Shown piece by piece: positions 12,379-55,524 of a stretch of DNA of 64,000 bases. The notes under the pieces are model-generated. The model had not been told where the DNA came from. It ran no database searches and saw only the letters and a list, made by a program, of their open reading frames with translations. How positions within the stretch are numbered: position 1 is the first letter of the stretch; each line of letters begins with the position of its first letter. Both the position numbers and the translations under genes were made by a program. Where the stretch lies: contig CAZIBN010000001.1 of NCBI GenBank assembly GCA_964537395.1, positions 986-64,985 of the forward strand, in the 5' to 3' direction. The DNA is from an uncultured Elusimicrobia bacterium. GTDB lineage: Bacteria; Elusimicrobiota; Elusimicrobia; UBA1565; UBA9628.

Positions 12379-12431
12379 AGAATCCGTTTATTCGGTTGAC
12401 TCGCGGCCCGTTCTTTGGGACCATTGGACCT

Positions 12432-29033: not shown

Positions 29034-29360
29034 ATGATCCACGAGAACGCGACGACCCGGATGGCGATCCTGCTCAAGCAGCGGAGGTTTGAACTGCGCA
29101 TGTCCCAACGCCACCTGGCCGACTCCGCCGGCGTAAGCCCCTCCGTCGTCAGCCGGGCGGAGCGGGGCGGAGAGGCGCTCCTCTCCACCTGGGAGAAGCT
29201 GTTCAGCGGGCTCGGAGAACGCCTCGAGTTCGATTCGACACGCGACAGCGAAGACGCCGAAGGGTTGCTGATCGAGGAAGGGGAGGCCCGCCGAGAACGC
29301 CGCTACCAAGGCTTATTGGCCCGTTTCGGCCGAAGATATCGTAATATCTCACCCGCATGA
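29034..29360 (+). CDS. XRE-family HTH transcriptional regulator
   Basis: LRMSQRHLADSAGVSPSVVSRAERG. ATGA overlap with top6B. Confidence 0.8.
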   Translation: MIHENATTRMAILLKQRRFELRMSQRHLADSAGVSPSVVSRAERGGEALLSTWEKLFSGLGERLEFDSTRDSEDAEGLLIEEGEARRERRYQGLLARFGRRYRNISPA

Positions 29361-31273
29361 AGAAGACCAAACCTAAAGTGAAGCCCGCCCCTGCCCCCGC
29401 GCCCAAGCCCCGCGCCGAGAAGCCTCGCGCCGCCGGCAAAACCGCGGACGAGATGGGCAAGCAGCAGCGAGAGATCTCGGTCTCCGAGTTCTTCACCAAG
29501 AACCGCCACCTGCTCGGCTTCGATAACCCTCGCAAAGCCCTGCTGACCTGCGTGAAGGAAGCCGTCGACAACGCGCTCGACGCCTCCGAAGAAGCGGGCA
29601 TCCTCCCTGAGATCGTCGTCAAGCTCGAGGCCGTGGGCGACGGAACCGGCCCCGCCCCGGCGGTCTCACAGGCGACGCGCTTCAAGGTCACCATCATCGA
29701 CTACGGCCCGGGCATCGTGCGCGAGGTGATTCCCCGCATCTTCGCCAAACTTTTATACGGCTCCAAGTTCCACCGCCTGCGCATGAGCCGCGGCCAGCAG
29801 GGCATCGGCATCTCCGCCGCCGGCATGTACGGCCAGCTCACCACGGGCAAACCGGTCAAGATCATCTCGCGCACCGGCGAAAAGCAGCCCGCGCACTACT
29901 TCGAGGTCCAGATCGACACCAAGAAGAACGAGCCGATCATCCTCGAGAAGAAGCAGATCGAGTGGGAGGCCCACCGCGGCACCCAGGTCACCATCGAGCT
30001 CGAAGGCAAGTACCAGAAAGGCCGGGCATCGGTCGATGAGTACATCGAGCTCTCCGCCATTTCCAACCCGCACGCGCAGTTCACCTACCACGCCCCCGAC
30101 GGCGAGATCAAGGTCTACCCGCGCACGATCCAGCACAACCCCGAGCCGCCCAAAGAGATCAAGCCTCATCCGTACGGCATCGAGCTCGGAATGCTCCTTA
30201 AGATGCTCCAGGACACCAAGAGCCACTGGCTCGCCGGCTTCCTGTCCGCCGACTTCTCCCGCGTCTCGACCGAGACCGCGACCGAGATGTGCAAGGCCGC
30301 CGGCGTCAGCCCGAAGAAGCGCCCGCGCGATGTCGTCGGCATCGAAGCCGAGAAGCTGTTCAAGACCATCCAGGCCACCAAGCTGATGGCCCCGCCGACG
30401 AACTGCCTCTCGCCCATCGGCGAAAAGGAGATCCTGGCCGGGCTCTTCAAGCAGATCAAGGGCGATTTTTACACCGCCGTGAGCCGTCCGCCGGCGGTGT
30501 ACCGCGGCAACCCGTTCATCATCGAGGCGGGTCTGGCCTGGGGCCGCGGCCCCGAGCAGGCCGCGCTCGACGCCGCCAACGCGGTCAAGGCGCCGCTTGC
30601 CGAAGGCGAAAGCCACGACGGCAATGACAGCGAGCTGGCGCGCGTGATGCGCTTCGCCAACCGCGTCCCCCTCCTTTATCAGCAGTCGGCGTGCTCGACC
30701 TTCAAGGCCGTGCTCGACACGACCTGGAAGAACTACGGCATCCCGCAGTCGCGCGGAGCGCCCCCCGCCGGACCGATGGTGATCTTCGTGCACATGGCCT
30801 CGGTCTGGGTCCCGTTCACGAGCGAGTCGAAGGAAGCCATCGCCGACTACGACGAGATCCGCAAGGAGATCACGCTCGCGCTGAGGGAAGCCGGACGCCG
30901 GCTCGGCGTTTTCATCAAGCGCCGCGACCGCGCCCACGCCGAGAGCAAGCGCCGTGACATCTTCGAGCTGTATATCGAGGAAGTGGTCGGCGCCTGCAAG
31001 CGCCTCAAGGGCGGCAAGCTCTCCGAGCAAAAGCTGAAGGCTCAGCTCACCGAGATCGCCAAAAAGATCACGGGCGGGCAGAAGACCGACCTGCTTCTCG
31101 ACAAGAACGCCGGCCCGCACGGCCTGCCGCACTCGATCATCGTCACGGCAGACGGCATCGAGGGCGAGGTTCCCGTCGAGGGGCCCGTCACCGTGACCGA
31201 GGCCGCACCCGCCCCCGCGCCGGAGAAGCCGAAGCCCGCGAAGAAGAAGCCGCTGAAGAAAAAGAGAAAATAA
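29357..31273 (+). CDS. top6B: DNA topoisomerase VI subunit B
   Basis: GHKL motifs EAVDNALDA, IIDYGPGI, GQQGIGISAA. Leader EISVSEFFTKNRHLLGFDNP. Basic K/P/A tails at both ends. Confidence 0.85.
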   Translation: MKKTKPKVKPAPAPAPKPRAEKPRAAGKTADEMGKQQREISVSEFFTKNRHLLGFDNPRKALLTCVKEAVDNALDASEEAGILPEIVVKLEAVGDGTGPAPAVSQATRFKVTIIDYGPGIVREVIPRIFAKLLYGSKFHRLRMSRGQQGIGISAAGMYGQLTTGKPVKIISRTGEKQPAHYFEVQIDTKKNEPIILEKKQIEWEAHRGTQVTIELEGKYQKGRASVDEYIELSAISNPHAQFTYHAPDGEIKVYPRTIQHNPEPPKEIKPHPYGIELGMLLKMLQDTKSHWLAGFLSADFSRVSTETATEMCKAAGVSPKKRPRDVVGIEAEKLFKTIQATKLMAPPTNCLSPIGEKEILAGLFKQIKGDFYTAVSRPPAVYRGNPFIIEAGLAWGRGPEQAALDAANAVKAPLAEGESHDGNDSELARVMRFANRVPLLYQQSACSTFKAVLDTTWKNYGIPQSRGAPPAGPMVIFVHMASVWVPFTSESKEAIADYDEIRKEITLALREAGRRLGVFIKRRDRAHAESKRRDIFELYIEEVVGACKRLKGGKLSEQKLKAQLTEIAKKITGGQKTDLLLDKNAGPHGLPHSIIVTADGIEGEVPVEGPVTVTEAAPAPAPEKPKPAKKKPLKKKRK

Positions 31274-32367
31274 TGGCCAAGAGAAACCCGGAAGTCGAGA
31301 AGAAGCTCGTCGGCCTGGCCGATCTGGTGATAACCGCGGCTGCGCGCAAGAAGGATCCGTCGATCTCCATCCCGGTCCGCTCGCTGTCGAACGTCAAATT
31401 CAACGCGAAGAAGGGTTACATCGAGATGGGCTCGAACAAGCAGCTTCGGACCTTCTTCAACGTGGGCATGGCCAAGAAATTCATGCAGACGATGCTCGTT
31501 GCCGACGCGCTCAACGAGCTCCAGAAGGCCGACCTGACCACCAGCCTTCGCGAGATTTATTATAGAACGAAACACACGATGGGCGACTCTCATGAGAACA
31601 CCTTCGACGACCAGGCCGAGTCCGACCCGGTCATCGAGGACCTCGAGGTCGGCCTCGCCGCCCTGCGCGAGGAGTTCCATGTACGCGCCGAGAACGCCGG
31701 CACCATCATCGGCCCCGTCGTCTTCGAAGACGACGGCGACAAGGTGGACTGCGCTAAATTAGGCAAGGGCGGCTACTCGGTGCCCTCCATCGTCGAGGAG
31801 GAGTACCTCAAGATCAAGAAGTGCACCGCCGACTTCGTCCTCCTCATCGAGAAGGGAACGCAGTGGAACCGCCTCGCCGAGGACAAGTTCTGGCGGAAGT
31901 ACAACTGCATCCTGCTCACCGGCAACGGCCAGCCGCCGCGCGGCGTACGCCGCCTCGCCCGCCGGCTCCACGAGGAAAAGAAGCTCCCCGTCTATGTGCT
32001 CGTCGACAACGACCCGTGGGGGTACTACATCTACTCCGTCGTCAAGCAGGGCTCGATCAACCTCGCGTTCGAAAGCCAGCGCATGGCCATCCCGTCAGCG
32101 AAGTTCATCGGCCTGTCCTCCGCCGACCCCGAGATCTACGACCTCCCGCGCAACGTCGGCATCAAGCTCAACGACAAGGACATCACGCGCGCCAAGGAGC
32201 TGATGAACTACGCGTGGTTCCAGAAGAAGGAATGGCAGGTCGAGATCAAGCGCATGCTCACCAGCGGCCTCAAGTACGAGCTCGATGCGCTCGCCAACAA
32301 GGACTTCCAGTACCTGACCAAGACCTACCTGCCCAAGAAGCTCAAGGACAGGGACTGGCTCGACTAG
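31273..32367 (+). CDS. top6A: DNA topoisomerase VI subunit A (Spo11 family)
   Basis: SLREIYYRTKH catalytic-Tyr context. Toprim LLIEKG and VLVDNDPWG. TAATG overlap with top6B. Confidence 0.85.
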   Translation: MAKRNPEVEKKLVGLADLVITAAARKKDPSISIPVRSLSNVKFNAKKGYIEMGSNKQLRTFFNVGMAKKFMQTMLVADALNELQKADLTTSLREIYYRTKHTMGDSHENTFDDQAESDPVIEDLEVGLAALREEFHVRAENAGTIIGPVVFEDDGDKVDCAKLGKGGYSVPSIVEEEYLKIKKCTADFVLLIEKGTQWNRLAEDKFWRKYNCILLTGNGQPPRGVRRLARRLHEEKKLPVYVLVDNDPWGYYIYSVVKQGSINLAFESQRMAIPSAKFIGLSSADPEIYDLPRNVGIKLNDKDITRAKELMNYAWFQKKEWQVEIKRMLTSGLKYELDALANKDFQYLTKTYLPKKLKDRDWLD

Positions 32368-45502: not shown

Positions 45503-46750
45503 CTACTTCGGGATCTTGACGCCCTTCAGGTCGGGCGACTCCGGGTAAGCCAGCCCCATGCGCTGCAAAGTCTTGCGCAGGATCCGGGCGAAGGCGAGGT
45601 CGCGCCGGGGCTTATCGTCGGCCGGGATCACATTCCAAGGCGCGTGCCAGGTGCTCGTCCGCGCGAGGATCGAGCCGAACGCATTCTGAAGCTCATCCCA
45701 GTGCTTGCGCGTCTCAAGATCCGACGCCGAGAACTTCCAGTTCTTCTCCGGACGGTCGATGCGCGCCTGCAGCCGCTCGCGCTGAACATCCTTCGAAACA
45801 TGGAGGAAGATCTTGACGACCTTCACGCCCGAACGGGCCAGCTCGAGCTCGAAGGCGTTGATGCGGGCGTAGCGTTCCTCGACGGTCTTCGCGTCATGCG
45901 TGCCGAACACGGTCGGCACGATGATGTCTTCGTAATGCGAGCGGTTGAACACGCCGATGATGCCGGGCTTGGGCACCTCCTTCTTGATGCGCACGAGGAA
46001 GTCCTGGGCGGCCTCCTCGGCGGTGGGCTTCTTGAAGGCGGCGACGCGCACGTAAGCGGGATTGAGGCCGGTCATGCCGTGCTTGATGACGCCGTCCTTG
46101 CCGGCGGTATCCATGCCCTGGATGACGACGAGCACGGCCTGCGTCTTGGCCGCGGCGAGGATGTCCTCAAGCTTGTTGAGGTCCTTTACCTCTTTCTCGA
46201 GCTTCTTGCCGGCCTTCTTCTCGGAGAGGCCGTCCTCGTCGTTGGTCGCAACAATCGAAAGGTCCACGGCCTCGCCGGGAGCGGCGGTCGCGCCGTCGAA
46301 GCGGGCGTTGAGGGCGGCGGCCGAGGCCGCCAGCGCCTTGCGCTCCTGAGGCTTGGCGGCGGCGAGGGCCGCGCCGATCTTCTCAAGCGATACGGCGGCC
46401 TTTTCGGCCTTATCCCCCCCCGCCTCGCGCAGCGCCGCGACGAGCGCGGGCAACTCGGTCTTGGGGGCGGCGAGAGCGGAGATCAGAGCGGAACGCGCGG
46501 CAAAAACGGCCGGCGTCGCCGCGACGGAGGGCGCGGGCGCTATCTGCGCCTGGAAGGCGGCCGTCAGACCCAACGCCGGTGATAGGGCCGGGCCGGACAG
46601 GGCGGCGGTCAGAGGGATGAGCTGAAGATTGATCGCATTGACCACGGGTCCGCGCGCGACGGGCACGATCGGCGCGGATACGCGGACCTGCGCGTGGGAT
46701 GAGGCAACGAAGATCAGGGCCGCGAATATCGCAACTAGGGATCGTCGCAT
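45503..46750 (-). CDS. ppk2: Polyphosphate kinase 2-family protein with signal-peptide-like N-terminus and long Ala-rich linker
   Basis: VVIQGMDTAGKDG Walker A and a PPK2 C-terminal domain. Start at M20 (MRRSLVAIFAALIFVASSHA), with TATAGT 6 nt upstream. Confidence 0.8.
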   Translation of the reverse strand: MRRSLVAIFAALIFVASSHAQVRVSAPIVPVARGPVVNAINLQLIPLTAALSGPALSPALGLTAAFQAQIAPAPSVAATPAVFAARSALISALAAPKTELPALVAALREAGGDKAEKAAVSLEKIGAALAAAKPQERKALAASAAALNARFDGATAAPGEAVDLSIVATNDEDGLSEKKAGKKLEKEVKDLNKLEDILAAAKTQAVLVVIQGMDTAGKDGVIKHGMTGLNPAYVRVAAFKKPTAEEAAQDFLVRIKKEVPKPGIIGVFNRSHYEDIIVPTVFGTHDAKTVEERYARINAFELELARSGVKVVKIFLHVSKDVQRERLQARIDRPEKNWKFSASDLETRKHWDELQNAFGSILARTSTWHAPWNVIPADDKPRRDLAFARILRKTLQRMGLAYPESPDLKGVKIPK

Positions 46751-46853
46751 GCCAATACTATAAAGGACAAGAGGCAGTCGCGCGTGGGCCGTCTGGGTAG
46801 GTCTCAATGGGAAAAGGACCCAGGAACGCCGCCGCCGGATCAGGTCTCTCGCG

Positions 46854-46891: not shown

Positions 46892-47842
46892 TTATACGTC
46901 CCAGCACTCGTTGGCGTGCTTGAGGAGGTCGGTCTCGGTCTGGGCGCGACGGACGAAGTCCTGGACCTCTTTGGATTTCCAGGCGGCGCCGACCTTGGGC
47001 CACGCGGAAGCCAAGGTCTCGGTTCTCAGATCGGCCACGGCGAAGGGAAGTGCATTGAGAAGCTTGGCGCGGCCGTTGGGAACCACGAGGACCATGCTTT
47101 GGGGGCTCTCGGCGCGGGTGACCATCTCCTGCTGTATCCCCCACGGGTAGATGGCGAGCTTGGGCCCCTTCAGCGAGGCGGCGGCGACCTTGAGATTCAT
47201 GACCGCTTCCTTCCAGTCGTCGTCGCTGCAAGCCAAGGTGTCCCAGGCGTAAGCGGCGCGACCGAGGCGCATCATCGGGCCGGTGACGAAGGTCCGCACT
47301 TCCCGCTTGGCCGCCTGCTCATAAACGGCGACCGCATCCTGCACATTGATCTTTGTCGGGATAAAAACGAGCTCGGGCTCGAGCCCGCGCTTAACCAGCC
47401 GGTCGATCGCCGCCCAAGCGGGGGCGTAACCGGAACCCGGACGAAGCTTCTCGTGGACGGCCGCGGTGGCGCCGTCGATCGAGATCTGAACACAAGCAAT
47501 CTTTAAATCTTTAAGCTTGTCGCATGACTTGTCGTCAAGATCGAGACCGTTCGTCTCGATCTTAATTTCGACACCTCCCTTTGTGAGCAGTTCGAAGATC
47601 TCGAACGCCCAGGGACTCCCCATGGGTTCCCCGCCGCCGAAGGCGACGTAGGCGATGCCGATATCAACAATTTGGCGCGTAAGCGCCAAAGCCTGTTCGC
47701 GGTTCATCTCGTCGGGCCAGGCCTTGTCCGGCCCCGACTCCTCGCAGCAATGCAGGCAGCGGCCCGTGCAGCGGTTGCTCAGCTGCCAGGCAAGAAAGAG
47801 AGGGGCGCCGTAGTCGCCCACGGACGCCCCTCTCCGGTCCAT
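46892..47842 (-). CDS. Radical SAM enzyme, PqqE/MftC-like, no SPASM cysteines (rSAM-C)
   Basis: CTGRCLHC (CxxxCxxC), FGGGEPM, IETNG, C-terminal LPFAVADLRTETLASAW. Confidence 0.85.
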   Translation of the reverse strand: MDRRGASVGDYGAPLFLAWQLSNRCTGRCLHCCEESGPDKAWPDEMNREQALALTRQIVDIGIAYVAFGGGEPMGSPWAFEIFELLTKGGVEIKIETNGLDLDDKSCDKLKDLKIACVQISIDGATAAVHEKLRPGSGYAPAWAAIDRLVKRGLEPELVFIPTKINVQDAVAVYEQAAKREVRTFVTGPMMRLGRAAYAWDTLACSDDDWKEAVMNLKVAAASLKGPKLAIYPWGIQQEMVTRAESPQSMVLVVPNGRAKLLNALPFAVADLRTETLASAWPKVGAAWKSKEVQDFVRRAQTETDLLKHANECWDV

Positions 47843-47961
47843 CAGGTGAAGCGGATGTAGGGCTGGGCCATCACGCGCTCGGAAACTTCCTCAAGAGAGG
47901 GCGTCTCCCAAGCGAGCTTCGGCTCGGCCTTGGCATCCGTCACGGTTTTCTGGTCGTTCAT
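47842..47961 (-). CDS. 39-aa PqqA-like precursor peptide (not in ORF track)
   Basis: MNDQKTVTDAKAEPKLAWETPSLEEVSERVMAQPYIRFT. AGGAG lies 4 nt before the ATG. Its TGA shares one base with the ATG of rSAM-C. Confidence 0.65.
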   Translation of the reverse strand: MNDQKTVTDAKAEPKLAWETPSLEEVSERVMAQPYIRFT

Positions 47962-47979
47962 GTTACTCCTGTTTACCGG

Positions 47980-48939
47980 TCAGACCACGACCGGTATATT
48001 GTTTAAATTGTCCAGCGCGACCCACTGATTGGCCCGCGCCGACAACGACGGCTCGGCGGCGAGCCGCTCCAGCCCGGTCCGCACGCGCGGATCGGCCCAG
48101 GCGCTCTTGTACGACTCCCAGGCTTCAAGGAAAGTCTGCGATTTGAGGTCGGCGCATGTAAAGGGCAACGGGGCCGCGACCTTCACCCGCCCGTCGGGAA
48201 GCACCAGCAATGTGCCGGAGGGCTGGAACGCCCGGTGGGCCATTTCCTCTTCCAGGGAGAAGGGCTTGTAGCACAGCTCCATCTTACCGGCAAGCTCGCG
48301 CTCCTTGCGCTCCAAAACGAGCAGGAAGGCCGCGTATTCGGCTTTCGAGGGCTCGAGCTTATCCCAGAGCTTGGCGGCCGTTCCGAGGCGCATGAGCTGT
48401 CCCGTGTTGAACCGGAAGGCTCCCAGGGACGATGCCAGATCGATGACGGCCTCGGCTTCGAAAATGTTCAATCGAGTCGGTGCAAAGGTGATCTCGAGGG
48501 GCAATCCTGCAAACACCGTCGCGCGGCACGCATTAACGGCTTTCTCCAGCAATCCGTTGACTCTTTGCCGTTGATACACGGCTTGAGAAGCCCCATCCAA
48601 GGAGATCTGGACCGACCTGATCCCGAGGCCTTTGAGGACCGTCGGATCGAAGTTTTGGCCGTTCGTCTCGATCTTAAGCAGCACCCCGCCGTCGGAGAGC
48701 GTCTTGCAGACCTCCGCGAAGTGCGGGACCAAGGTCGGCTCGCCGCCCACGATCATCGCGTACGGCACGTCCGCCGCGACGATCTCGGCGCACAGCTTGA
48801 GAGCCTGCTCTCTCGTAAGCTCGTTGGGCAAGGCTTTTCCCGGCGCGGAGTCCGTGCAGCAATGCAGGCACGCGAGGTCGCAGTCCCGGGTGAGTTGCCA
48901 GGTGACCATGGTCGGCGCGGAGAAGGCCTCGATCCTCAT
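47980..48939 (-). CDS. Radical SAM enzyme, PqqE/MftC-like, no SPASM cysteines (rSAM-B)
   Basis: CDLACLHC, VGGEPT, IETNG, LPFTCADLKSQTFLEAW. Start at M18, with an ATGA overlap onto the prenyltransferase stop. Confidence 0.85.
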   Translation of the reverse strand: MRIEAFSAPTMVTWQLTRDCDLACLHCCTDSAPGKALPNELTREQALKLCAEIVAADVPYAMIVGGEPTLVPHFAEVCKTLSDGGVLLKIETNGQNFDPTVLKGLGIRSVQISLDGASQAVYQRQRVNGLLEKAVNACRATVFAGLPLEITFAPTRLNIFEAEAVIDLASSLGAFRFNTGQLMRLGTAAKLWDKLEPSKAEYAAFLLVLERKERELAGKMELCYKPFSLEEEMAHRAFQPSGTLLVLPDGRVKVAAPLPFTCADLKSQTFLEAWESYKSAWADPRVRTGLERLAAEPSLSARANQWVALDNLNNIPVVV

Positions 48940-49853
48940 CGCCCCACCGCCGCAAAAATCGCGAACAGAGCCGTCGTGAGCGCGTAGCACTGAACGATGG
49001 AGCGGATCGCGGGCATGAACAGCCGCGGGGTGTCCCAGGTGGAGGCGCCGTCACGCAAAGACATGATCCACAGCGGCAAGCCCGCCAAGGCGGCGAGAAC
49101 CGTCAGCTTGGGGAAGATCCCAAGGAGAACGCCCAACGGGATGATCAGCAATCCCAGCGCGGACAGCGCCAGATAGAGCACCCTTCCGTTCTTCCGTCCA
49201 AGTCGAACGACCAGATTTTTCTTTCCGACGAGACGATCCTGATGGAAGTCGGGGATGTTGTTAACGGTCGCCAACGACATGATCAGCAATCCGGGGACCA
49301 GCGACGCGAGCAGGGCCCCCCACGAGAAGCGGTGGGTGTGGAGGTGCAGAGAACCAAGGACCATCCACGGACCGTACGATAATCCGATGACGGTTTCCCC
49401 CAATCCGCGATAGACCCAACGGATGGGCGGGCCGACGTACCAGACGGCGGCGGCGCCGCCAAGAAGCGTGTACAGAACGATGGGCCAACCTCCTTCCCAC
49501 GCGAGATAAAACCCGATGGCGGCGGCGACGGCGAACGCCCCCACGCCGAGCGAGAACATCCACTCGGGGATGTATTCCTCGGCGTCGGGATTGAAGACCC
49601 GGTCGGTGCCCATCTTCGCGTCGAAGTACTCGTTGAACGATTCGACGCCGACGACGGACAGAAAAATACCGAACAAGCCCAGGCAGAAGACCGGCATGTT
49701 AAACGTCTTTTCGATCCCGTACGCCCACGCCCCGCCCAGGAAGTACGGCAGCAGCCCCGCGTAGAGGAAAAAACGATAGCGTACGACCGAGGCGACCTTC
49801 ATGACGAAGGTCTGCTCGGCCGGCGCGTGCGGGGCGGCGAAGACGTCGGTCAT
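48936..49853 (-). CDS. UbiA-superfamily (MenA-like) aromatic prenyltransferase
   Basis: Asp-rich motifs NEYFDAKMGTD and NNIPDFHQDRLVGKKN. About 8 TM helices. ATGA overlap with the rSAM-A stop. Confidence 0.8.
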   Translation of the reverse strand: MTDVFAAPHAPAEQTFVMKVASVVRYRFFLYAGLLPYFLGGAWAYGIEKTFNMPVFCLGLFGIFLSVVGVESFNEYFDAKMGTDRVFNPDAEEYIPEWMFSLGVGAFAVAAAIGFYLAWEGGWPIVLYTLLGGAAAVWYVGPPIRWVYRGLGETVIGLSYGPWMVLGSLHLHTHRFSWGALLASLVPGLLIMSLATVNNIPDFHQDRLVGKKNLVVRLGRKNGRVLYLALSALGLLIIPLGVLLGIFPKLTVLAALAGLPLWIMSLRDGASTWDTPRLFMPAIRSIVQCYALTTALFAIFAAVGR

Positions 49854-50830
49854 TTTCCGCCGACCTCTTCCCACTGGTGAAGCCGCGAGACGATGTTCGG
49901 ATCTTCAGCGAGGCGTTCGATGAACGCCTCGACGCGCGGGCTCTTCCAGGCGGTCTGGAACTGGGCCCAGACCTGGCCGAGCGTGTCGGTCTTGAGGTCG
50001 CCGCAGGTGAAGGGCAGGGCGTTGATCAGCTTGACCTTGCCGTTGGGCAGGATGATGAACAGCGCGGCGGGGTTCTCGAGGCGGTAGCGGAGCTCCTCGA
50101 GCAGGCCCATCGAATGATAATAAACCCGCATCTTCCCCGCGTACTCGTCGCACTTCAAGCGCAAGGTCTCGAAGAACTCCGGATAATCGGCCTCATCGGG
50201 AGCCGTGATGGCCCAGGTGCGCACCGCGTTGCCGGTGAACATCAGCTTGCCCGTGTAGAACGAGTAGGCGCCGATGCTGTGCGCCAGATCGACGGCCGCG
50301 CCGATCTCCTTGATGTTGAACTTGGCGGGCACGAAGTTGATCTCGATGGGCACGCCGGCCTCGCGCAGGTTCTTGATGCCATCGAGCGCCGATTCGAGGC
50401 GGCCGTGCACACGCATCTTGTTGAACGAAGCGGGGGTCGCGCCGTCGAGGGAAACCTGGACAGCCTTCACGCCGAGGTCCTTGAGCTTCTTGCAGTTCTC
50501 CTTCGTCAGGTAGTGCCCGTTGGTCTCGATCTTGAGGCCGACGCCGCCGTTGGTGATGCGCTCCACCATGCCGAAGAAGTCGGGGCGCACCATCGGCTCG
50601 CCGCCGGAGAACGAGACGTAGGGCACCTCGCTCTTGATCAGCTGGTCGATGATGCCGTAGGCCTGCTCGGTCGTCAGCTCGTCCTTGAATGCCTTGCCGG
50701 GGCCCGACTCCTCGATGCAGTGGAGGCACGCCAGGTTGCACTCGTTGGTGATCTGCCAGGCCACATAGAGGGGCGCGGCGAGATCCGAGGTATTCTGCTG
50801 TTCAGGAACGACGGCGGTTTCGGGAGCCAT
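49850..50830 (-). CDS. Radical SAM enzyme, PqqE/MftC-like, no SPASM cysteines (rSAM-A)
   Basis: CNLACLHC, SGGEPM, IETNG, LPFTCGDLKTDTLGQVW. AGAGG SD. Confidence 0.85.
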   Translation of the reverse strand: MAPETAVVPEQQNTSDLAAPLYVAWQITNECNLACLHCIEESGPGKAFKDELTTEQAYGIIDQLIKSEVPYVSFSGGEPMVRPDFFGMVERITNGGVGLKIETNGHYLTKENCKKLKDLGVKAVQVSLDGATPASFNKMRVHGRLESALDGIKNLREAGVPIEINFVPAKFNIKEIGAAVDLAHSIGAYSFYTGKLMFTGNAVRTWAITAPDEADYPEFFETLRLKCDEYAGKMRVYYHSMGLLEELRYRLENPAALFIILPNGKVKLINALPFTCGDLKTDTLGQVWAQFQTAWKSPRVEAFIERLAEDPNIVSRLHQWEEVGGK

Positions 50831-50838
50831 GTGACCTC

Positions 50839-51279
50839 TTATTCGATGATCAGACCTTTTTCCTTCAGCTGCGCGAGGAACGACTCGGCTTCCGCCGCCA
50901 TCTTGCCGGTGGGATCCTCGAACTTTTCCTTGAGCTTGGCGACGAGATTGCCGGACTCCGCGCCCGCGATGACCTCGCGCACGACGGCCGCGCCCGTGGG
51001 GCTCAGCGTGTACACCTTCTCGGAGCGCGTCTCGAACAGCACCGCGCCGAACTTCTCTTCCCGGAACTTCACGAATGGAGCAAGCTTCATGATTCCCTCT
51101 CTGTGGGCGACGAGGCAGGAGTTCGCGTCCCAGGCCTCGCGCGCCGCGATCTCTTCGATTTCAAGACGAACCTTACGCTGGGTCGCCGCGTCGGCGGGGT
51201 CGGACTGGGCCGCCTCCGTCTCCGAGACGACGAAGTCGCCGCTTTTCCACGACTTGCGCAGCAGCGCTTCGTACGACAT
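50839..51279 (-). CDS. PqqD/MftB-like peptide chaperone with 63-aa N-terminal extension
   Basis: C-terminal 83 aa: PFVKFREEKFGAVLFETRSEKVYTLSPTGAAVVREVIAG...FLAQLKEKGLIIE. TAATG overlap with the upstream gene. Internal ATG at 51090 has a GAGGGA SD-like sequence. Confidence 0.7.
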   Translation of the reverse strand: MSYEALLRKSWKSGDFVVSETEAAQSDPADAATQRKVRLEIEEIAAREAWDANSCLVAHREGIMKLAPFVKFREEKFGAVLFETRSEKVYTLSPTGAAVVREVIAGAESGNLVAKLKEKFEDPTGKMAAEAESFLAQLKEKGLIIE

Positions 51280-52226
51280 TAAAATTCCCTCTTGGCCATG
51301 ACTTCGACGAAGAAGCCGAGCTCGGAGGCTTCCGCCTTGCAGGGCAGCTTCTTGATCATGGCCAGCATCGAGTCGGTGAGCTCCCTTCCCTTCTCGCGCG
51401 TCTTCTGGATATGGCCCCGCTCCTTCAGGAGCTTCGCGATCCTGGCCGCGTCGGGCTTGGGCTCGTTCCACAGCGCGAGGAAGTCCTCGCGGGTCGCCGG
51501 GTCCTGAACCGCGTAGATGCAAGGCAAGGTCAGCTTGCGGTTCGCGAGGTCCTGGCCCTCGTCCTTGCCCGAGACGCGCTCGGTCAAAGTGTAGTCGTGT
51601 ATGTCGTCCACGATCTGAAGCAATATGCCGGCCGCGCAGGCGAGGCGGGGCGGGTCGCTTTGCTCGTGAGGGAAAGGCGATAGCTCGGACAGCACCGCGC
51701 CGGCCCACTCGAACAGGGCGCCGGTCTTGCGGGAGGCGACGCCCATATAGGCCTCGACCGTGACGACGGTCGAGCCCTTAAGAAACTCTTCCTGGAGCTC
51801 GCCGACCGTCATCTCGCGCACCGTCGTCACCAGGAGCTTGGGTGCGTTAGGGGAGATATCGATGGCCTCTTCCAGGCCCTGCGCAAAAGCGAGGTCGCCC
51901 AGCAGGAGCCCGACGGTGGTGCCGAAGATCTTGTTGGGGGTCGCATGTCCGCGGCGCAGGTCGGCCTCGTCCACGCAGTCGTCGTGGAGCAGGCTCGCGT
52001 TATGCACGAGCTCCATGGCCCGGGCGACGCCCTCGGCCTTGTCCAGGTCGACGCCCAGGGCCCCCGCCAGGAGCAGGGCGAAGCGGGAGCGGAGCATCTT
52101 GCCCGGCCGGCCGATGTGGGAGGCCAATTCCTGGCCGACGCGCCCCTCGATGCGCCGGGCGCGGCTCTCCAGTCCGGCGCGGACCCGGGTCAACGAATCT
52201 TCCACCTTTAAAAGGGAAATCGGCAT
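51279..52226 (-). CDS. trans-Polyprenyl diphosphate synthase
   Basis: FARM LLHDDCVDEADLRRG and SARM QIVDDIHDY. Confidence 0.85.
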   Translation of the reverse strand: MPISLLKVEDSLTRVRAGLESRARRIEGRVGQELASHIGRPGKMLRSRFALLLAGALGVDLDKAEGVARAMELVHNASLLHDDCVDEADLRRGHATPNKIFGTTVGLLLGDLAFAQGLEEAIDISPNAPKLLVTTVREMTVGELQEEFLKGSTVVTVEAYMGVASRKTGALFEWAGAVLSELSPFPHEQSDPPRLACAAGILLQIVDDIHDYTLTERVSGKDEGQDLANRKLTLPCIYAVQDPATREDFLALWNEPKPDAARIAKLLKERGHIQKTREKGRELTDSMLAMIKKLPCKAEASELGFFVEVMAKREF

Positions 52227-52248: not shown

Positions 52249-52764
52249 CTAAGCTATCGCCTTGAGTAAGGTAAGTACTTTAGGGAGAACGGCGGCTTTT
52301 TCCTGATTTCCGACCTTTCCCAGCACGAAGTCGAGGAGTCGGACGAGCTCCAGGAGCTCGTTGAGCTTTTTGCGGAAGGCGGCGGACTCCTTGTCGCTGC
52401 CGGCCTCCTTGAGGCACTCGTCGATCGCTCCGATCACCGGCTCGATCTCCCGCTTCTTGCGCTCCCTTGCGATGCGACAGCACATCGTCCAGACGTCCTT
52501 CTCGCTCGAGAAATACTCCTTCCGGTCACGCGGAAGCGAGACCCGCCGGATCAGCCCCCAGTCCACGAGGGCCCGAAGATTCATGCTGGCGTTTCCCCGG
52601 CTGACGGCCAGCTCGGCCATGACGTCGTCCATCGTGAGCGGTTGCTCCGAGATCAGGAGCAGCGCGTGCATGCGCGCCATCGTCTTGTTGATGCCCCAGG
52701 CCCCGCCCATCTGCCCCCAGGACTCGACGAATTTTTCCTTCGCGGACTTTAGCTCTGCGCCCAT
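52249..52764 (-). CDS. GbsR/MarR-type winged-helix transcriptional regulator
   Basis: MARMHALLLISEQPLTMDDVMAELAVSRGNASMNLRALVDWGLIRRV. Confidence 0.65.
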   Translation of the reverse strand: MGAELKSAKEKFVESWGQMGGAWGINKTMARMHALLLISEQPLTMDDVMAELAVSRGNASMNLRALVDWGLIRRVSLPRDRKEYFSSEKDVWTMCCRIARERKKREIEPVIGAIDECLKEAGSDKESAAFRKKLNELLELVRLLDFVLGKVGNQEKAAVLPKVLTLLKAIA

Positions 52765-54568: not shown

Positions 54569-54670
54569 GTCGCTGACCGAGAAGGGCACACCCGGAGAAA
54601 TCCGGGGCCGCAAAGCCGACGGGGCTAACGCGCGAGAGCGCCAAGCTGGCCGGGCCGCCGAAACGGTGAC
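54569..54670 (+). promoter_or_regulatory. c-di-GMP-I (GEMM-I)-like riboswitch
   Basis: GGGCACACC-CGGA-GAAA-UCCG-GGGCCGCAAAGCCGACGGGGCUAA matches the GGCAAACC...GNRA...ACGCAAAGCC..CGG..CUAA core of the Vc2-type aptamer. A second hairpin CGCGC-GAGA-GCGC follows. Closing P1 is GUC..ACCG / CGGUGAC. Confidence 0.7.
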
Positions 54671-54681
54671 TCCAAACCGAA

Positions 54682-55524
54682 ATGGTTAAAGGAGTCTTCC
54701 GCCGAGTCGTCCTCGCGATGATGTTCATCGCCGCTTTCGCCCCCTTGGCGCGGGCCGCCGAGGACATCAAGGACATGGCCAAGGCCATGTCCATCGCCGC
54801 CGCGGGGCGAAAGGTCAAGCGCGTGGCCGTCGTTCCCTTCACCGCCCCCCGTGGCTCCGCCTCGTTCTCCGGCGCGGTCGTCTCCGAGCGCCTGGTCATC
54901 CAGATCCTCGCCCGCGGCGAGCTCGACCTCGTCGAGCGCGGCCAGCTCGACAAGATCCTCGAGGAGCAGCGCCTGGGCGTCTTCGGCATCATGGACCAGG
55001 ACACGGTCAAGACCCTGGGCAAGGTGCTCGGCGTGGACGCGATCCTGACCGGGACCATCGTCGAGCTGAAGGGCGAGCGCGTCGAGATCAACGCGCGCCT
55101 CATCCACACCGAGACGGCGCAGGTGCTGGCCGCGGCGACCGTGAGCGTGGCCAAGGATTGGGAGGAGCGCGCCATCGGAGATGACGCGTCGACCTGGATC
55201 GTCCCTGTCCCCGACCTGGGCGACGAGCCGTTCAAATCCGGCGCCTCGTGCCAGTCGAGCGTCGACGAGGTCGAGCGCCGCATCCTCGATTTCAAGGCCC
55301 GCTACTGGGCCGAGCGCCTCAAGGACCCCGCCTTCTCCATACGCTCGCTCAAGCGCAACCCGGGCTCCGAGATCGCGAACACGGAGACCAAGCGCCAGTT
55401 TTTCCTTAAGCTTCACGAGCGCTACGACGCCCAGGCGCGCACGCCGCTGTCGCCGTCGGAGCAGGCGGCGCTGGCGAAGGGCTTGCAGGAGATCAAGATC
55501 TTGTCGGCGCTGTGCGAAGGATGA
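54682..55524 (+). CDS. CsgG/FlgO/LpoB-like secreted protein
   Basis: Signal peptide VVLAMMFIAAFAPLARA. VAVVPFTAP...ERLVIQILARGELDLVERGQLDKILEEQ...LGVDAILTGTIVE. Confidence 0.6.
   Translation: MVKGVFRRVVLAMMFIAAFAPLARAAEDIKDMAKAMSIAAAGRKVKRVAVVPFTAPRGSASFSGAVVSERLVIQILARGELDLVERGQLDKILEEQRLGVFGIMDQDTVKTLGKVLGVDAILTGTIVELKGERVEINARLIHTETAQVLAAATVSVAKDWEERAIGDDASTWIVPVPDLGDEPFKSGASCQSSVDEVERRILDFKARYWAERLKDPAFSIRSLKRNPGSEIANTETKRQFFLKLHERYDAQARTPLSPSEQAALAKGLQEIKILSALCEG

What the first reader, a model, noticed from the sequence alone, without database searches (positions are those of the whole stretch)
47842..47961. Unannotated 39-aa ORF with PqqA-like W-x-x-P-x-L-x-E-V motif and PqqA-like Trp-to-Tyr spacing, but a different core
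This ORF is below the ORF-track length cut-off. The minus-strand translation is MNDQKTVTDAKAEPKLAWETPSLEEVSERVMAQPYIRFT. AGGAG lies 4 nt upstream of the ATG, and the TGA overlaps the ATG of rSAM-C. From memory, Klebsiella PqqA ([23 protein letters not shown]) and Methylobacterium PqqA (MKWAAPIVSEICVGMEVTSY...) share W-x-x-P-x-(F/V)-x-(D/E)-(L/I), with the cross-linked Tyr 17 residues after the Trp. Here W18-E-T-P-S-L-E-E-V fits that motif and Y35 is also exactly 17 residues after W18. The position equivalent to the PQQ Glu (Tyr-4) is Met, not Glu. The scaffold therefore looks PqqA-like, but the chemistry must differ from PQQ.
Basis: partly seen in the sequence, partly recalled or inferred. Interest (0 to 1): 0.8.

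Follow-up and report, generated by a model that had tools for sequence, protein, structure and literature searches.

The report
Peptide precursor of prenylated membrane cofactor
This tiny 39-codon gene is real and almost perfectly conserved. It always sits with a peptide chaperone, radical-SAM enzymes and a quinone-type lipid-tail transferase, often inside respiratory-enzyme operons, which suggests that many uncultured bacteria build an undescribed membrane electron carrier from a ribosomal peptide.

Summary
The ORF at 47842..47961 (-) is confirmed and is a real gene. Relatives occur in at least 283 species genomes and in 99 clusters at 50% identity. Leaders vary, the W-x-x-P-x-Φ-E-[ED]-V-S motif is conserved, and the C-terminus (V/I)MAQP(Y/F)IRFT-stop is nearly invariant. 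Core dN/dS is about 0.01, with 0 nonsynonymous but many synonymous codon variants.

The gene is always part of a cassette. Type 1, as in this window, is polyprenyl-PP synthase, PqqD, rSAM-A, MenA-like UbiA prenyltransferase, rSAM-B, peptide, rSAM-C. Type 2 is peptide, PqqD, one rSAM, UbiA. UbiA is present in 101 of 102 loci with enough flank.

In at least 27 type-2 loci the cassette directly follows nqrA-F or lies between nqrE and nqrF. Other loci adjoin Wolinella-type fumarate reductase, Psr/NrfD complexes or UbiU/UbiV-like genes.

The PqqA-like motif and the 17-residue Trp-to-Tyr spacing are real and conserved. The peptide nevertheless fails the PqqA and MftA models, and the rSAMs lack SPASM clusters.

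Best reading, with confidence about 0.5: it is the precursor of a polyprenylated, peptide-derived, quinone-like membrane redox carrier. I found no description in the searched literature or in NCBIfam/Pfam. The chemistry is untested.

The parts
47842..47961 (-). Precursor peptide gene: 39 aa plus the TGA stop
   Evidence: The gene is conserved in at least 283 genomes. Core dN/dS is 0.013.
47966..47970 (-). AGGAG ribosome-binding site, 4 nt before the ATG
   Evidence: read directly from the sequence.
47881..47910 (-). Leader recognition motif W18-E-T-P-S-L-E-E-V-S27, the inferred PqqD/RRE binding site
   Evidence: out of 208 members: W 203, P 205, Φ 205, acid 207, V/I 208, S/T 208. hhalign aligns it to the PqqA motif W-K-K-P-A-F-I-D-L.
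47845..47874 (-). Core V30-MAQPYIRFT39. Y35 is encoded at 47857-47859. The peptide always ends here.
   Evidence: The core is nearly invariant across phyla, and all variation in the ten codons is synonymous.
46892..47842 (-). rSAM-C: radical SAM enzyme with CxxxCxxC and no SPASM cysteines. Its start overlaps the peptide stop (TGATG).
   Evidence: The best NCBIfam hit is MftC (90 bits, cut-off 265).
47980..48939 (-). rSAM-B: radical SAM paralog. Its ATG overlaps the UbiA stop (ATGA).
48936..49853 (-). MenA/UBIAD1-like UbiA-family polyprenyltransferase. Its ATG overlaps the rSAM-A stop (ATGA).
   Evidence: It hits PF01040 and carries the motifs NEYFDAKMGTD and NNIPDFHQD. The best MenA model gives 109 bits (cut-off 264).
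49850..50830 (-). rSAM-A: the paralog slightly closest to the single rSAM of the four-gene cassette
   Evidence: The AF2 model has pLDDT 87. The best fold matches are SkfB, PqqE and SuiB.
50839..51279 (-). PqqD-domain peptide chaperone (RRE) with an N-terminal extension of about 60 aa. Its ATG overlaps the stop of the upstream gene (TAATG).
   Evidence: It hits PF05402 at 42 bits (cut-off 23.4).
51279..52226 (-). Trans-polyprenyl diphosphate synthase, long-chain type (A-5, S-4 before DDCVD)
   Evidence: It hits PF00348 at E=5e-42. The best NCBIfam matches are an encapsulin-cargo polyprenyl transferase model (E=1.3e-38) and then the HepT, solanesyl, nonaprenyl and octaprenyl synthases, all below cut-off. 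It is present in 52 loci and after UbiA in several type-2 loci.
52249..52764 (-). MarR/GbsR-like regulator, an accessory gene present upstream in some Elusimicrobiota loci only

Best explanation
The ORF encodes the precursor of a ribosomally made, post-translationally modified molecule of the cofactor type, like PQQ and mycofactocin.

Proposed steps:
1. The variable N-terminal leader carries W-E-T-P-x-L-E-E-V-S. The stand-alone PqqD-domain chaperone binds this motif.
2. The chaperone presents the invariant C-terminal core VMAQPYIRFT to radical-SAM enzymes of the PqqE/MftC/SkfB fold. These enzymes have only the SAM cluster. There is one of them in the minimal cassette and three paralogs here.
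3. The enzymes modify the P-(Y/F)-I-R-F-T end. The site is 17 residues from the Trp, the same register as the Tyr that is modified in PqqA and MftA.
4. A MenA/UBIAD1-like membrane prenyltransferase then attaches a long polyprenyl chain. In this window the chain comes from the dedicated polyprenyl diphosphate synthase.
5. The product stays in the membrane and serves as a quinone-like electron carrier, or as a bound redox cofactor, for NQR-type NADH dehydrogenases, fumarate reductase and NrfD/Psr-type complexes.

Shown: the gene is real and under strong purifying selection; the gene set and its near-obligate co-occurrence; the enzyme family assignments; the operon contexts.

Inferred: PqqD binding, the rSAM target, prenylation of the peptide-derived moiety, and the redox role. 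My rough step-wise confidence is 0.97 that this is a real precursor, 0.85 that PqqD and the rSAMs process it, 0.65 that UbiA prenylates it, and about 0.5 that it is a membrane redox carrier.
For: Family and selection:
-.

Cassette co-occurrence:
- Synteny is strict in the 80 genome loci.
- A second architecture, peptide-PqqD-rSAM-UbiA(-PPsyn), appears in metagenomes of 32-66% GC.
- UbiA is present in 77/78 type-1 and 24/24 type-2 loci with enough flank.
- The window has ATGA, TGATG and TAATG overlaps that link PPsyn, PqqD, rSAM-A, UbiA, rSAM-B, the peptide and rSAM-C.

Enzymes:
- PqqD hits PF05402. All three rSAMs hit PF04055, and their best NCBIfam hits are MftC, AhbD and NirJ, all below cut-off.
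- CxxxCxxC is conserved in all four rSAM clades.
- The AF2 model of rSAM-A matches the RiPP maturases SkfB, PqqE and SuiB.
- UbiA carries MenA-type Asp-rich motifs, and its best PDB relative is UBIAD1.
- PPsyn is of the HepT/solanesyl/octaprenyl type.

Respiratory context:
- 27 type-2 loci are fused to nqr operons on the same strand. In L087, L094, L112, L133 and L140 the cassette lies between nqrE and nqrF.
- NqrF of L169 passes TIGR01941.
- L134, L169 and L170 read nqr-cassette-PPsyn(-MoeA)-porin-FeS-NrfD, and L169 continues into a PhsA-like Mo subunit.
- L081 reads Wolinella-type frdCAB-dctPQM-cassette, with all three Frd subunits above NCBIfam cut-offs. FrdCAB is also adjacent in L073, L077 and L079, and partly in L080.
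- In L136, UbiU- and UbiV-like genes and a UbiE-like methyltransferase lie directly upstream of the peptide, and a HepT-like synthase lies downstream.
- Multihaem cytochromes lie downstream in L172 and L173, and one in L173 gives a weak NapC/NirT/NrfH-family hit.

Other:
- No transporter, protease or immunity gene is conserved with the cassette.
Against: - No product has been observed. Every chemical step is inferred.
- Y35 is Phe in 4/208 members whose cassettes are intact, so a Tyr phenol cannot be the obligatory prenyl acceptor or quinone precursor.
- The cassette itself encodes no hydroxylase, methyltransferase or protease that a quinone or an excised head group would seem to need. UbiU/V-like genes appear in only one locus.
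- The window itself (Elusimicrobiota, type 1) has no respiratory genes next to the cassette. There the functional link rests on homologous cassettes elsewhere.
- L171 carries a second UbiA and a second polyprenyl synthase nearby, so UbiA-family genes in these regions need not all serve the peptide.
- Some loci have the peptide gene without adjacent PqqD, rSAM or UbiA (L109, L116, L136).
- The nqr-like operons have an RnfC-like first subunit, so their acceptor is itself uncertain.
- I could not check whether genomes with the cassette lack the men, mqn or ubi pathways.
Confidence: 0.5

Rival explanations
1. The product is a lipid-anchored peptide that acts as a dedicated subunit, tethered cofactor or assembly factor of the NQR-like complex, and perhaps of other membrane oxidoreductases. 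It is not a diffusible quinone-like carrier. PqqD and the rSAM cross-link or otherwise modify the C-terminus, and UbiA adds a polyprenyl anchor.
For: The cassette lies between nqrE and nqrF, or immediately after nqrF, in at least 27 loci. No protease is conserved with it, so the peptide may stay intact. The natural Y35F variants argue against a Tyr-derived quinone ring. The invariant free C-terminus suggests a specific protein-like interaction.
Against: Type-1 cassettes in Elusimicrobiota and Proteobacteria are not next to nqr. They adjoin different quinone-dependent enzymes (Frd), which fits a shared carrier better than a complex-specific subunit. A long-chain polyprenyl synthase plus a MenA-type transferase is the classic quinone-tail module.
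Confidence: 0.2
2. The peptide, PqqD and rSAM make a small soluble redox cofactor of the PQQ/mycofactocin type. UbiA and PPsyn are ordinary menaquinone-tail genes that merely travel with them.
For: The leader motif and the Tyr register resemble PqqA and MftA. The best rSAM hits are MftC and PqqE. UbiA is MenA-like.
Against: UbiA accompanies the peptide in 101/102 informative loci, in two different gene orders and across at least four phyla. In the window it sits between two rSAM genes and is coupled to both by ATGA overlaps. It scores far below every MenA equivalog cut-off (109 vs 264 bits). None of the enzymes that finish PQQ or mycofactocin (PqqB/C, MftD/E/F) is present.
Confidence: 0.12
3. 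The cassette makes a secreted or surface lipopeptide natural product: a signal like isoprenylated ComX, or an antibiotic or respiratory inhibitor.
For: Prenylated RiPPs exist (ComX, cyanobactins; from my own knowledge). rSAM-RiPP clusters usually make bioactive peptides.
Against: The core is essentially identical across the four taxa named for the cassette: Elusimicrobiota, Proteobacteria, Planctomycetota and Omnitrophota. That pattern is typical of cofactors, not of diversifying bioactive peptides. No exporter, leader peptidase or immunity gene is conserved. The prenyl synthase is of the long-chain respiratory type. The cassette is embedded in nqr operons.
Confidence: 0.08
4. It is a chance ORF or a non-coding spacer between two rSAM genes.
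For: Short ORFs are abundant in this 65% GC DNA.
Against:: the amino-acid sequence is conserved while synonymous sites are saturated, the codon-position GC is coding-type, and the RBS and the start region MNDQK are conserved.
Confidence: 0.01

Closest known systems
PQQ biosynthesis (PqqA precursor, PqqD chaperone, PqqE radical SAM)
   Same: Both have a very small precursor, a stand-alone PqqD-domain chaperone and an rSAM of the same structural branch (PqqE is the second-best PDB fold match). Both share the leader motif W-x-x-P-x-Φ-x-acid-Φ and an aromatic residue exactly 17 positions after the Trp. Both have the invariant core expected of a cofactor.
   Different: The peptide fails TIGR02107. 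It has Met rather than Glu at Tyr-4. Five residues (IRFT plus the end) follow the Tyr. The rSAMs have no SPASM auxiliary-cluster cysteines. PqqB, PqqC and PqqF are absent. A MenA-like prenyltransferase and a polyprenyl synthase are present.
Mycofactocin biosynthesis (MftA, MftB, MftC)
   Same: MftC is the best NCBIfam hit for rSAM-B and rSAM-C, and MftB is among the PqqD hits. In a gap-free register, MftA ...VTETLVEEVSIDGMCGVY and WETPSLEEVSERVMAQPY share E, E, V, S, M and Y. This comes from reading the sequences directly. The MftA sequence was validated.
   Different: The peptide fails TIGR03969, and hhalign gives only E=0.17. The Tyr is not C-terminal, so MftC-type decarboxylation of a terminal Tyr is impossible. 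MftD, MftE and MftF are absent, and there is no SPASM domain. In place of the glycosyl tail added by MftF (from my own knowledge), a prenyl tail is predicted.
Isoprenoid quinone tail attachment (MenA/UBIAD1/UbiA with HepT/IspB-type polyprenyl diphosphate synthase)
   Same: The UbiA homolog has the MenA/UBIAD1-type motifs N-x-Y-x-D-x3-G-x-D and N-N-x2-D-x3-D. Its best PDB relative is UBIAD1. The synthase has small residues at -5/-4 before DDxxD and matches the long-chain (HepT, solanesyl, octaprenyl) models alongside short- and medium-chain synthase models. The genomic company consists of quinone-dependent complexes.
   Different: Both enzymes score below every NCBIfam equivalog cut-off. They are obligately linked to a ribosomal peptide, a PqqD and an rSAM rather than to men, mqn or ubi genes. 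The acceptor is unknown.
Prenylated RiPPs (ComX/ComQ; cyanobactin PatF-type ABBA prenyltransferases)
   Same: Both involve a ribosomal peptide that receives an isoprenoid.
   Different: Those systems use soluble ComQ- or ABBA-type enzymes and C5-C15 donors, have no rSAM or PqqD, and have hypervariable cores (from my own knowledge). This system has an integral-membrane UbiA-family enzyme, a long-chain synthase and an invariant core. My paper searches found no RiPP cluster with a UbiA-family enzyme.

Membership tests
PqqA (TIGR02107, PQQ precursor) | Scores above the curated cut-off (20 bits) of the PqqA model | tested here: not met
   The window peptide and 24 family members give no hit even at E<=10. 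Five genuine PqqA sequences score 40-48 bits.
PqqA (TIGR02107, PQQ precursor) | E-x3-Y cross-link pair | tested here: not met
   Tyr-4 is Met in 204/208 members and otherwise T, I or V.
PqqA (TIGR02107, PQQ precursor) | Leader motif W-x-x-P-x-Φ-x-acid-Φ with Tyr 17 residues after the Trp | tested here: met
   hhalign aligns the two motifs, but without statistical significance (E=0.019, probability 2.5%).
PqqA (TIGR02107, PQQ precursor) | Co-located pqqB, pqqC (and pqqF) | tested here: not met
   No such genes appear in the window cassette or in 170 related loci.
MftA (TIGR03969, mycofactocin precursor) | Scores above the model cut-off, and ends in C-terminal ...GVY | tested here: not met
   No hit. 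The peptide ends in ...PYIRFT.
rSAM/SPASM peptide maturases (PqqE, MftC, SkfB, SuiB type) | CxxxCxxC SAM-cluster motif and the TIM-barrel rSAM fold | tested here: met
   The motif is conserved in 261 sequences of the four clades. All hit PF04055. The AF2 model matches SkfB (TMq 0.72), PqqE and SuiB.
rSAM/SPASM peptide maturases (PqqE, MftC, SkfB, SuiB type) | C-terminal SPASM or twitch cysteines for auxiliary Fe-S clusters | tested here: not met
   Only one conserved Cys (PFTCGDL) lies outside the SAM motif. There is no Pfam SPASM hit.
rSAM/SPASM peptide maturases (PqqE, MftC, SkfB, SuiB type) | Membership of a named NCBIfam equivalog (MftC, PqqE, AhbD, NirJ and others) | tested here: not met
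   The best scores are 90-139 bits against cut-offs of 265-650.
RiPP recognition element, PqqD family (PF05402) | PqqD domain above the Pfam gathering score, encoded next to the precursor and the rSAM | tested here: met
   The score is 42 bits against a cut-off of 23.4. It is present in both architectures. Binding to the peptide was not tested.
MenA (1,4-dihydroxy-2-naphthoate polyprenyltransferase) | UbiA-family fold with MenA-type Asp-rich motifs | tested here: met
   It hits PF01040 at 79 bits. The motifs NEYFDAKMGTD and NNIPDFHQD are present. It matches UBIAD1 (8djk) at E=1e-4.
MenA (1,4-dihydroxy-2-naphthoate polyprenyltransferase) | Scores above a MenA equivalog cut-off | tested here: not met
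   The best score is 109 bits against a cut-off of 264. The L081 ortholog gives a similar result.
MenA (1,4-dihydroxy-2-naphthoate polyprenyltransferase) | Uses DHNA as acceptor, with men or mqn genes in the genome | not testable with these tools
   I had no access to whole genomes and cannot run an enzyme assay.
RiPP / peptide-derived cofactor (general) | Gene-encoded precursor with a variable leader and a conserved core, plus dedicated modifying enzymes | tested here: met
RiPP / peptide-derived cofactor (general) | A post-translationally modified product exists | not testable with these tools
   This needs mass spectrometry of co-expressed components or of native membranes.

The most novel reading that the evidence does not exclude
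The cassette is a previously unrecognised route to a membrane electron carrier whose head group is cut from, or remains part of, a ribosomal peptide. The peptide is modified by auxiliary-cluster-free radical SAM enzymes and given a long polyprenyl tail by a MenA-like enzyme. It would be a third ribosomally derived redox cofactor after PQQ and mycofactocin, and the first lipid-soluble one. It would act as the quinone equivalent for NQR-type, fumarate-reductase and NrfD-type complexes in Elusimicrobiota, Planctomycetota, Omnitrophota and some Beta/Gammaproteobacteria.
Probability: 0.4. Interest if true: 0.95.

Novelty: new variant of a known kind. Interest (0 to 1): 0.85.

Why it matters
If the model holds, respiratory chains in several large and mostly uncultured bacterial groups depend on a lipid cofactor made from a ribosomal peptide. 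This would be a biosynthetic logic not known for any quinone-like carrier. The groups concerned are groundwater and soil Elusimicrobiota, anaerobic Planctomycetota and Omnitrophota, and some Burkholderiales and Steroidobacteraceae.

Three consequences would follow:
- It could supply a quinone-like carrier for quinone-dependent complexes in such genomes, for example the menaquinone-type fumarate reductase found in Betaproteobacteria, which as far as I recall normally lack menaquinone.
- It would add the first integral-membrane UbiA-type enzyme to RiPP chemistry.
- It would define a family of peptide-modifying rSAM enzymes that work without SPASM auxiliary clusters.

The hypothesis is directly testable with a four-gene co-expression. 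Even if the redox role is wrong, this is a peptide whose last ten residues are nearly identical in every phylum where it was found, and it is obligately paired with a prenyltransferase. That remains an unexplained and widespread piece of biology.

Tried and rejected
- **Peptide against family libraries.** Pfam and NCBIfam gave no family for the peptide. Repeating the search on 24 members at E<=10 also found nothing.
- **Profile comparison with PqqA and MftA.** Only short, non-significant motif alignments came out. Homology is therefore not claimed.
- **Literature.** I searched the core sequence, PqqD+UbiA(+rSAM/polyprenyl/menaquinone), RiPP+UbiA, Elusimicrobia+menaquinone, and nqr+PqqD. Nothing relevant turned up. 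The one paper that holds both PqqD and UbiA (PMC12423496) treats ordinary PQQ and ubiquinone pathways separately. The groundwater Elusimicrobia paper does not mention the cassette.
- **Further conserved cassette genes.** All-against-all clustering of ORFs in 83 loci found only the rSAMs, UbiA, PqqD and PPsyn. The remaining clusters were lineage-specific synteny or antisense ORFs. No protease, exporter, hydroxylase or methyltransferase is conserved.
- **RNA elements.** An Rfam scan of the window and four loci found no RNA element attached to the cassette. The promoter and terminator scan was uninformative.
- **Cultured hosts.** Cluster-member names gave only MAGs (Planctomycetota) and metagenome reads.
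- **Search input.** I repeated it with one upstream residue added.
- **Families considered and dropped.** The SynChlorMet, GeoRSP and ACGX rSAM systems and AhbD/NirJ haem enzymes all scored far below cut-off. ComQ-type peptide prenylation by the PF00348 protein was rejected because that gene is absent from the proteobacterial cassettes and from many type-2 cassettes.
Full report
**Observation**

The minus strand of 47842..47961 reads ATG...TGA and translates to MNDQKTVTDAKAEPKLAWETPSLEEVSERVMAQPYIRFT. AGGAG ends 4 nt before the ATG. The stop shares one base with the ATG of the next radical SAM gene.

An ORF of this size is not remarkable here, because the same 16 kb holds 140 ORFs of at least 30 aa. 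The case therefore rests on conservation. Its codon-position GC (0.58/0.43/0.80) matches that of the flanking genes.

**The family**

A word-indexed protein search found 131 clusters of relatives, 36-68 aa long. An exhaustive HMMER search of 1.84 billion representatives found 99 clusters at 50% identity. A back-translated pattern scan found the gene in 283 species-level genomes and in more than 544 metagenome stretches.

The N-terminal part varies in length and sequence. From the Trp onward there are no indels. The counts below are for 208 members with an intact tail.

| Position | Residue(s) | Count of 208 |
|---|---|---|
| -17 | W | 203 |
| -14 | P | 205 |
| -12 | hydrophobic | 205 |
| -10 | acidic | 207 |
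| -9 | V/I | 208 |
| -8 | S/T | 208 |
| -4 | M | 204 |
| -3 | A | 207 |
| -2 | Q | 205 |
| -1 | P | 208 |
| 0 | Y (F 4, C 1) | 203 |
| +1 to +2 | I-R | 208 |
| +3 to +4, then stop | F-T (one Leu for Phe, one Ser for Thr) | 207 each |

Among 67 distinct DNA versions, the ten core codons never change the amino acid but use up to four synonymous codons. NG86 dN/dS is 0.013 for the core and 0.24 for the motif region, with dS above 1. One caveat applies: the loci were found through the core. The HMMER search, which had no such requirement, still found no alternative cores. Its few exceptions have truncated, fused or otherwise aberrant tails.

The ORF is therefore a translated gene under extreme purifying selection.

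**Neighbourhood**

In the window the gene belongs to a tightly packed minus-strand operon:

- polyprenyl diphosphate synthase (51279..52226)
- PqqD-domain protein (50839..51279)
- rSAM-A (49850..50830)
- UbiA-family prenyltransferase (48936..49853)
- rSAM-B (47980..48939)
- the peptide
- rSAM-C (46892..47842)

Four junctions are 1-nt or ATGA overlaps.

tblastn mapping shows the same order in all 80 genome loci. Most are Elusimicrobiota MAGs, and some are Steroidobacteraceae, Burkholderiales and Casimicrobiaceae MAGs. The proteobacterial versions lack the synthase.

A scan seeded with divergent members uncovered a second, simpler architecture: peptide, PqqD, one rSAM, UbiA, and sometimes the polyprenyl synthase. 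It occurs on contigs of 32-66% GC. Named relatives of its rSAM come from Planctomycetota (Phycisphaerales, Sedimentisphaerales) and Omnitrophota MAGs.

UbiA is present in 77 of 78 type-1 loci and in 24 of 24 type-2 loci with enough flanking sequence. No protease, exporter, hydroxylase or methyltransferase is conserved with the cassette. The minimal unit is therefore four genes: peptide, PqqD, rSAM and UbiA.

**The enzymes**

*PqqD and the rSAMs.*
- The PqqD protein passes PF05402.
- The three rSAMs pass PF04055 but no NCBIfam equivalog. Their best hits are MftC, AhbD, NirJ, SkfB and PqqE, at 69-139 bits against cut-offs of 265-650.
- In 261 aligned sequences of the four clades (A, B, C and the type-2 enzyme; 36-43% mutual identity), CxxxCxxC is invariant. 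There is no SPASM or twitch cysteine set.
- An AlphaFold model of rSAM-A (pLDDT 87) is most like the RiPP maturases SkfB (TMq 0.72), PqqE and SuiB. The sequence search of the PDB agrees.

*The UbiA protein.*
- It carries the MenA/UBIAD1-type motifs NEYFDAKMGTD and NNIPDFHQD.
- Its only PDB relative by sequence is UBIAD1.
- It reaches only 109 bits against the best MenA model, whose cut-off is 264.

*The synthase.*
- It matches heptaprenyl, solanesyl, nonaprenyl and octaprenyl diphosphate synthases among its top NCBIfam hits, below cut-off. The very best hit is an encapsulin-cargo polyprenyl transferase model, and short- and medium-chain synthases also match.
- It has Ala and Ser at positions -5 and -4 before DDCVD. 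By the established chain-length rule for trans-prenyl synthases, which I cite from my own knowledge, this predicts a long product.

**Genomic company elsewhere**

The window itself has only housekeeping neighbours. The homologous cassettes are more informative.

*NQR-type operons.*
- In 27 type-2 loci the cassette is on the same strand as, and contiguous with, an nqr-type operon.
- It lies either directly after nqrF or, in L087, L094, L112, L133 and L140, between nqrE and nqrF.
- A subunit of that operon lies immediately upstream of the peptide in 18 of 40 type-2 loci with upstream sequence.
- In L169 the last subunit passes the NqrF equivalog (296 bits, cut-off 295). The first subunit is RnfC-like.

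*NrfD/Psr-type complexes.* L134, L169 and L170 continue with the polyprenyl synthase, a Moco gene (MoeA in L169 and L170, a MobB-like ORF in L134), a porin, a QrcC/DsrO-like Fe-S protein and an NrfD membrane subunit. L169 adds a PhsA-like molybdoenzyme.

*Multihaem cytochromes.* L172 and L173 are followed by multihaem cytochromes. One in L173 gives a weak NapC/NirT/NrfH-family hit.

*Fumarate reductase.*
- In L081 the order is frdC-frdA-frdB-dctPQM-cassette on one strand.
- All three Frd subunits pass the Wolinella/Helicobacter-type fumarate reductase equivalogs.
- The same frdCAB lies beside the cassette, in a different arrangement, in L073, L077 and L079, and partly in L080.

*Anaerobic quinone tailoring genes.* In L136 the peptide gene is preceded by a UbiE-like methyltransferase, a UbiU-like protein (372 bits, cut-off 440) and a UbiV-like protein (168 bits, cut-off 275). 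It is followed by a HepT-like synthase.

All of these partners reduce, oxidise or tailor membrane quinones.

**Comparison with PqqA and MftA**

I recalled five PqqA and two MftA sequences from memory. I accepted them only after they passed TIGR02107 and TIGR03969.

- PqqA has W, P at +3, a hydrophobic residue at +5, an acidic residue at +7, a hydrophobic residue at +8 and Tyr at +17. There are no gaps among the five sequences. The new family has the same pattern.
- hhalign pairs AWETPSLEEV with [10 protein letters not shown], but only at E=0.019 and probability 2.5%.
- In the same register, MftA (VTETLVEEVSIDGMCGVY) shares E, E, V, S, M and Y with WETPSLEEVSERVMAQPY. hhalign reports only EEVSER/EEVSID at E=0.17.
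- The peptide itself hits neither family model.

The resemblance is real at the level of motif and register. It fits a common way of presenting a peptide from a PqqD domain to an rSAM active site. It does not establish homology, and it fails membership of both families.

**Mechanism proposed**

1. PqqD binds W-E-T-P-x-L-E-E-V-S.
2. The rSAM(s) act on the invariant C-terminal P-(Y/F)-I-R-F-T.
3. The MenA-like enzyme attaches a long polyprenyl chain.
4. The membrane-bound product works as a quinone-like carrier or bound cofactor for NQR-type, fumarate-reductase and NrfD-type complexes.

The gene set, its co-occurrence and its contexts are shown. Every chemical step is inferred.

Points that do not fit a simple "prenylated tyrosine to quinone" picture:
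- Natural Y35F variants keep an intact cassette.
- There are no hydroxylases in the cassette.
- There is no protease.
- The peptide always stops right after this six-residue motif, which ends in Thr in all but one member (P0162 ends in Ser). This hints that the free C-terminus, rather than or in addition to the aromatic ring, takes part.
- It is also unexplained what the two extra rSAM paralogs add in type 1, given that the core is identical.

**Rivals**

- The product could be a lipid-anchored subunit or cofactor specific to the NQR-like complex (0.2).
- It could be a soluble PQQ-like cofactor, with UbiA and PPsyn as unrelated neighbours (0.12). The 101/102 co-occurrence and the translational coupling argue against this.
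- It could be a secreted lipopeptide (0.08). The cross-phylum invariance and the missing export genes argue against this.
- It could be a chance ORF (0.01, refuted).

**Novelty**

None of the nine literature searches found the core sequence or any PqqD/rSAM/UbiA cassette. NCBIfam release 20 and Pfam have no model for the peptide and no equivalog for its enzymes.

I file it as a new variant of a known kind, namely rSAM/PqqD peptide-derived cofactor pathways. Three features are unprecedented as far as I could find: an integral-membrane UbiA-family transferase, rSAM maturases without auxiliary clusters, and physical integration into respiratory operons.

**Limits**

- I had no whole-genome access, so complementarity with the men, mqn and ubi pathways could not be tested.
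- I had no complex prediction and no product data.
- Taxonomic labels come from MAG titles.

Noticed in passing
window 54575..54662 (+): Rfam c-di-GMP-I riboswitch (RF01051, 62.8 bits, gathering score 35). It lies just upstream of ORF 54682..55524 (+, 280 aa), which has a signal-peptide-like N-terminus.
   Followed up: no
L169 3076..8503; also L134, L170, L172, L087, L094, L112: The nqr-type operons linked to the cassette are hybrids. The first subunit is RnfC-like (Complex1_51K plus Fe-S domains; it passes the rnfC model at 247 vs 246 bits). The last subunit is a true NqrF (296 vs 295 bits).
   Followed up: partly
L136 792..5798: A peptide gene without adjacent PqqD, rSAM or UbiA sits between a UbiE-like methyltransferase, UbiU-like and UbiV-like genes on one side and an unknown 250-aa protein plus a HepT-like polyprenyl synthase on the other. 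UbiU and UbiV are the anaerobic quinone hydroxylase family.
   Followed up: partly
L109 5761..11390: The peptide gene follows nqrA-F and NuoE/F/G-like genes. It is followed by a HemN-family radical SAM protein (PRK08629, 433 bits, cut-off 355) instead of PqqD, rSAM and UbiA.
   Followed up: partly
L171 (=L113) 11563..13482: A second UbiA-family gene and a second polyprenyl synthase lie 7 kb downstream of the cassette, after an Hdr/Mvh-like block.
   Followed up: no
L172 12930..14664; L173 12109..13846; L134 10222..12085; L122 7009..8767: In four loci, a response regulator and a 6-TM PilS-like histidine kinase directly follow the cassette.
   Followed up: no
L083, L086, L143 (proteins P0195, P0207, P0210, P0212): One sub-lineage has Phe in place of Tyr35 (…IMAQPFIRFT). 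PqqD and the rSAM are still present in all three loci, and UbiA is present in L086, the only one long enough to show it.
   Followed up: partly
window 45503..46807 (-): A PPK2-family polyphosphate kinase (TIGR03709 above cut-off) with an Ala-rich, signal-like N-terminal extension of about 170 aa lies downstream of rSAM-C. The same neighbour recurs in many Elusimicrobiota loci but not elsewhere, so this is probably lineage synteny.
   Followed up: partly
window 29357..32367 (+): Two adjacent ORFs (638 and 364 aa) look, from their N-terminal sequences alone, like a topoisomerase VI B/A pair. This was not tested.
   Followed up: no
L003, L056, L071, L075, L079, L082, L158: Cassette genes are split into several tblastn pieces or several called genes. 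These are probably frameshifts from assembly errors rather than pseudogenes.
   Followed up: no
L169 9992..10363, L170 7284..7655: A PF05635 (23S rRNA intervening-sequence protein) gene is inserted between the rSAM and UbiA of an otherwise standard type-2 cassette.
   Followed up: no
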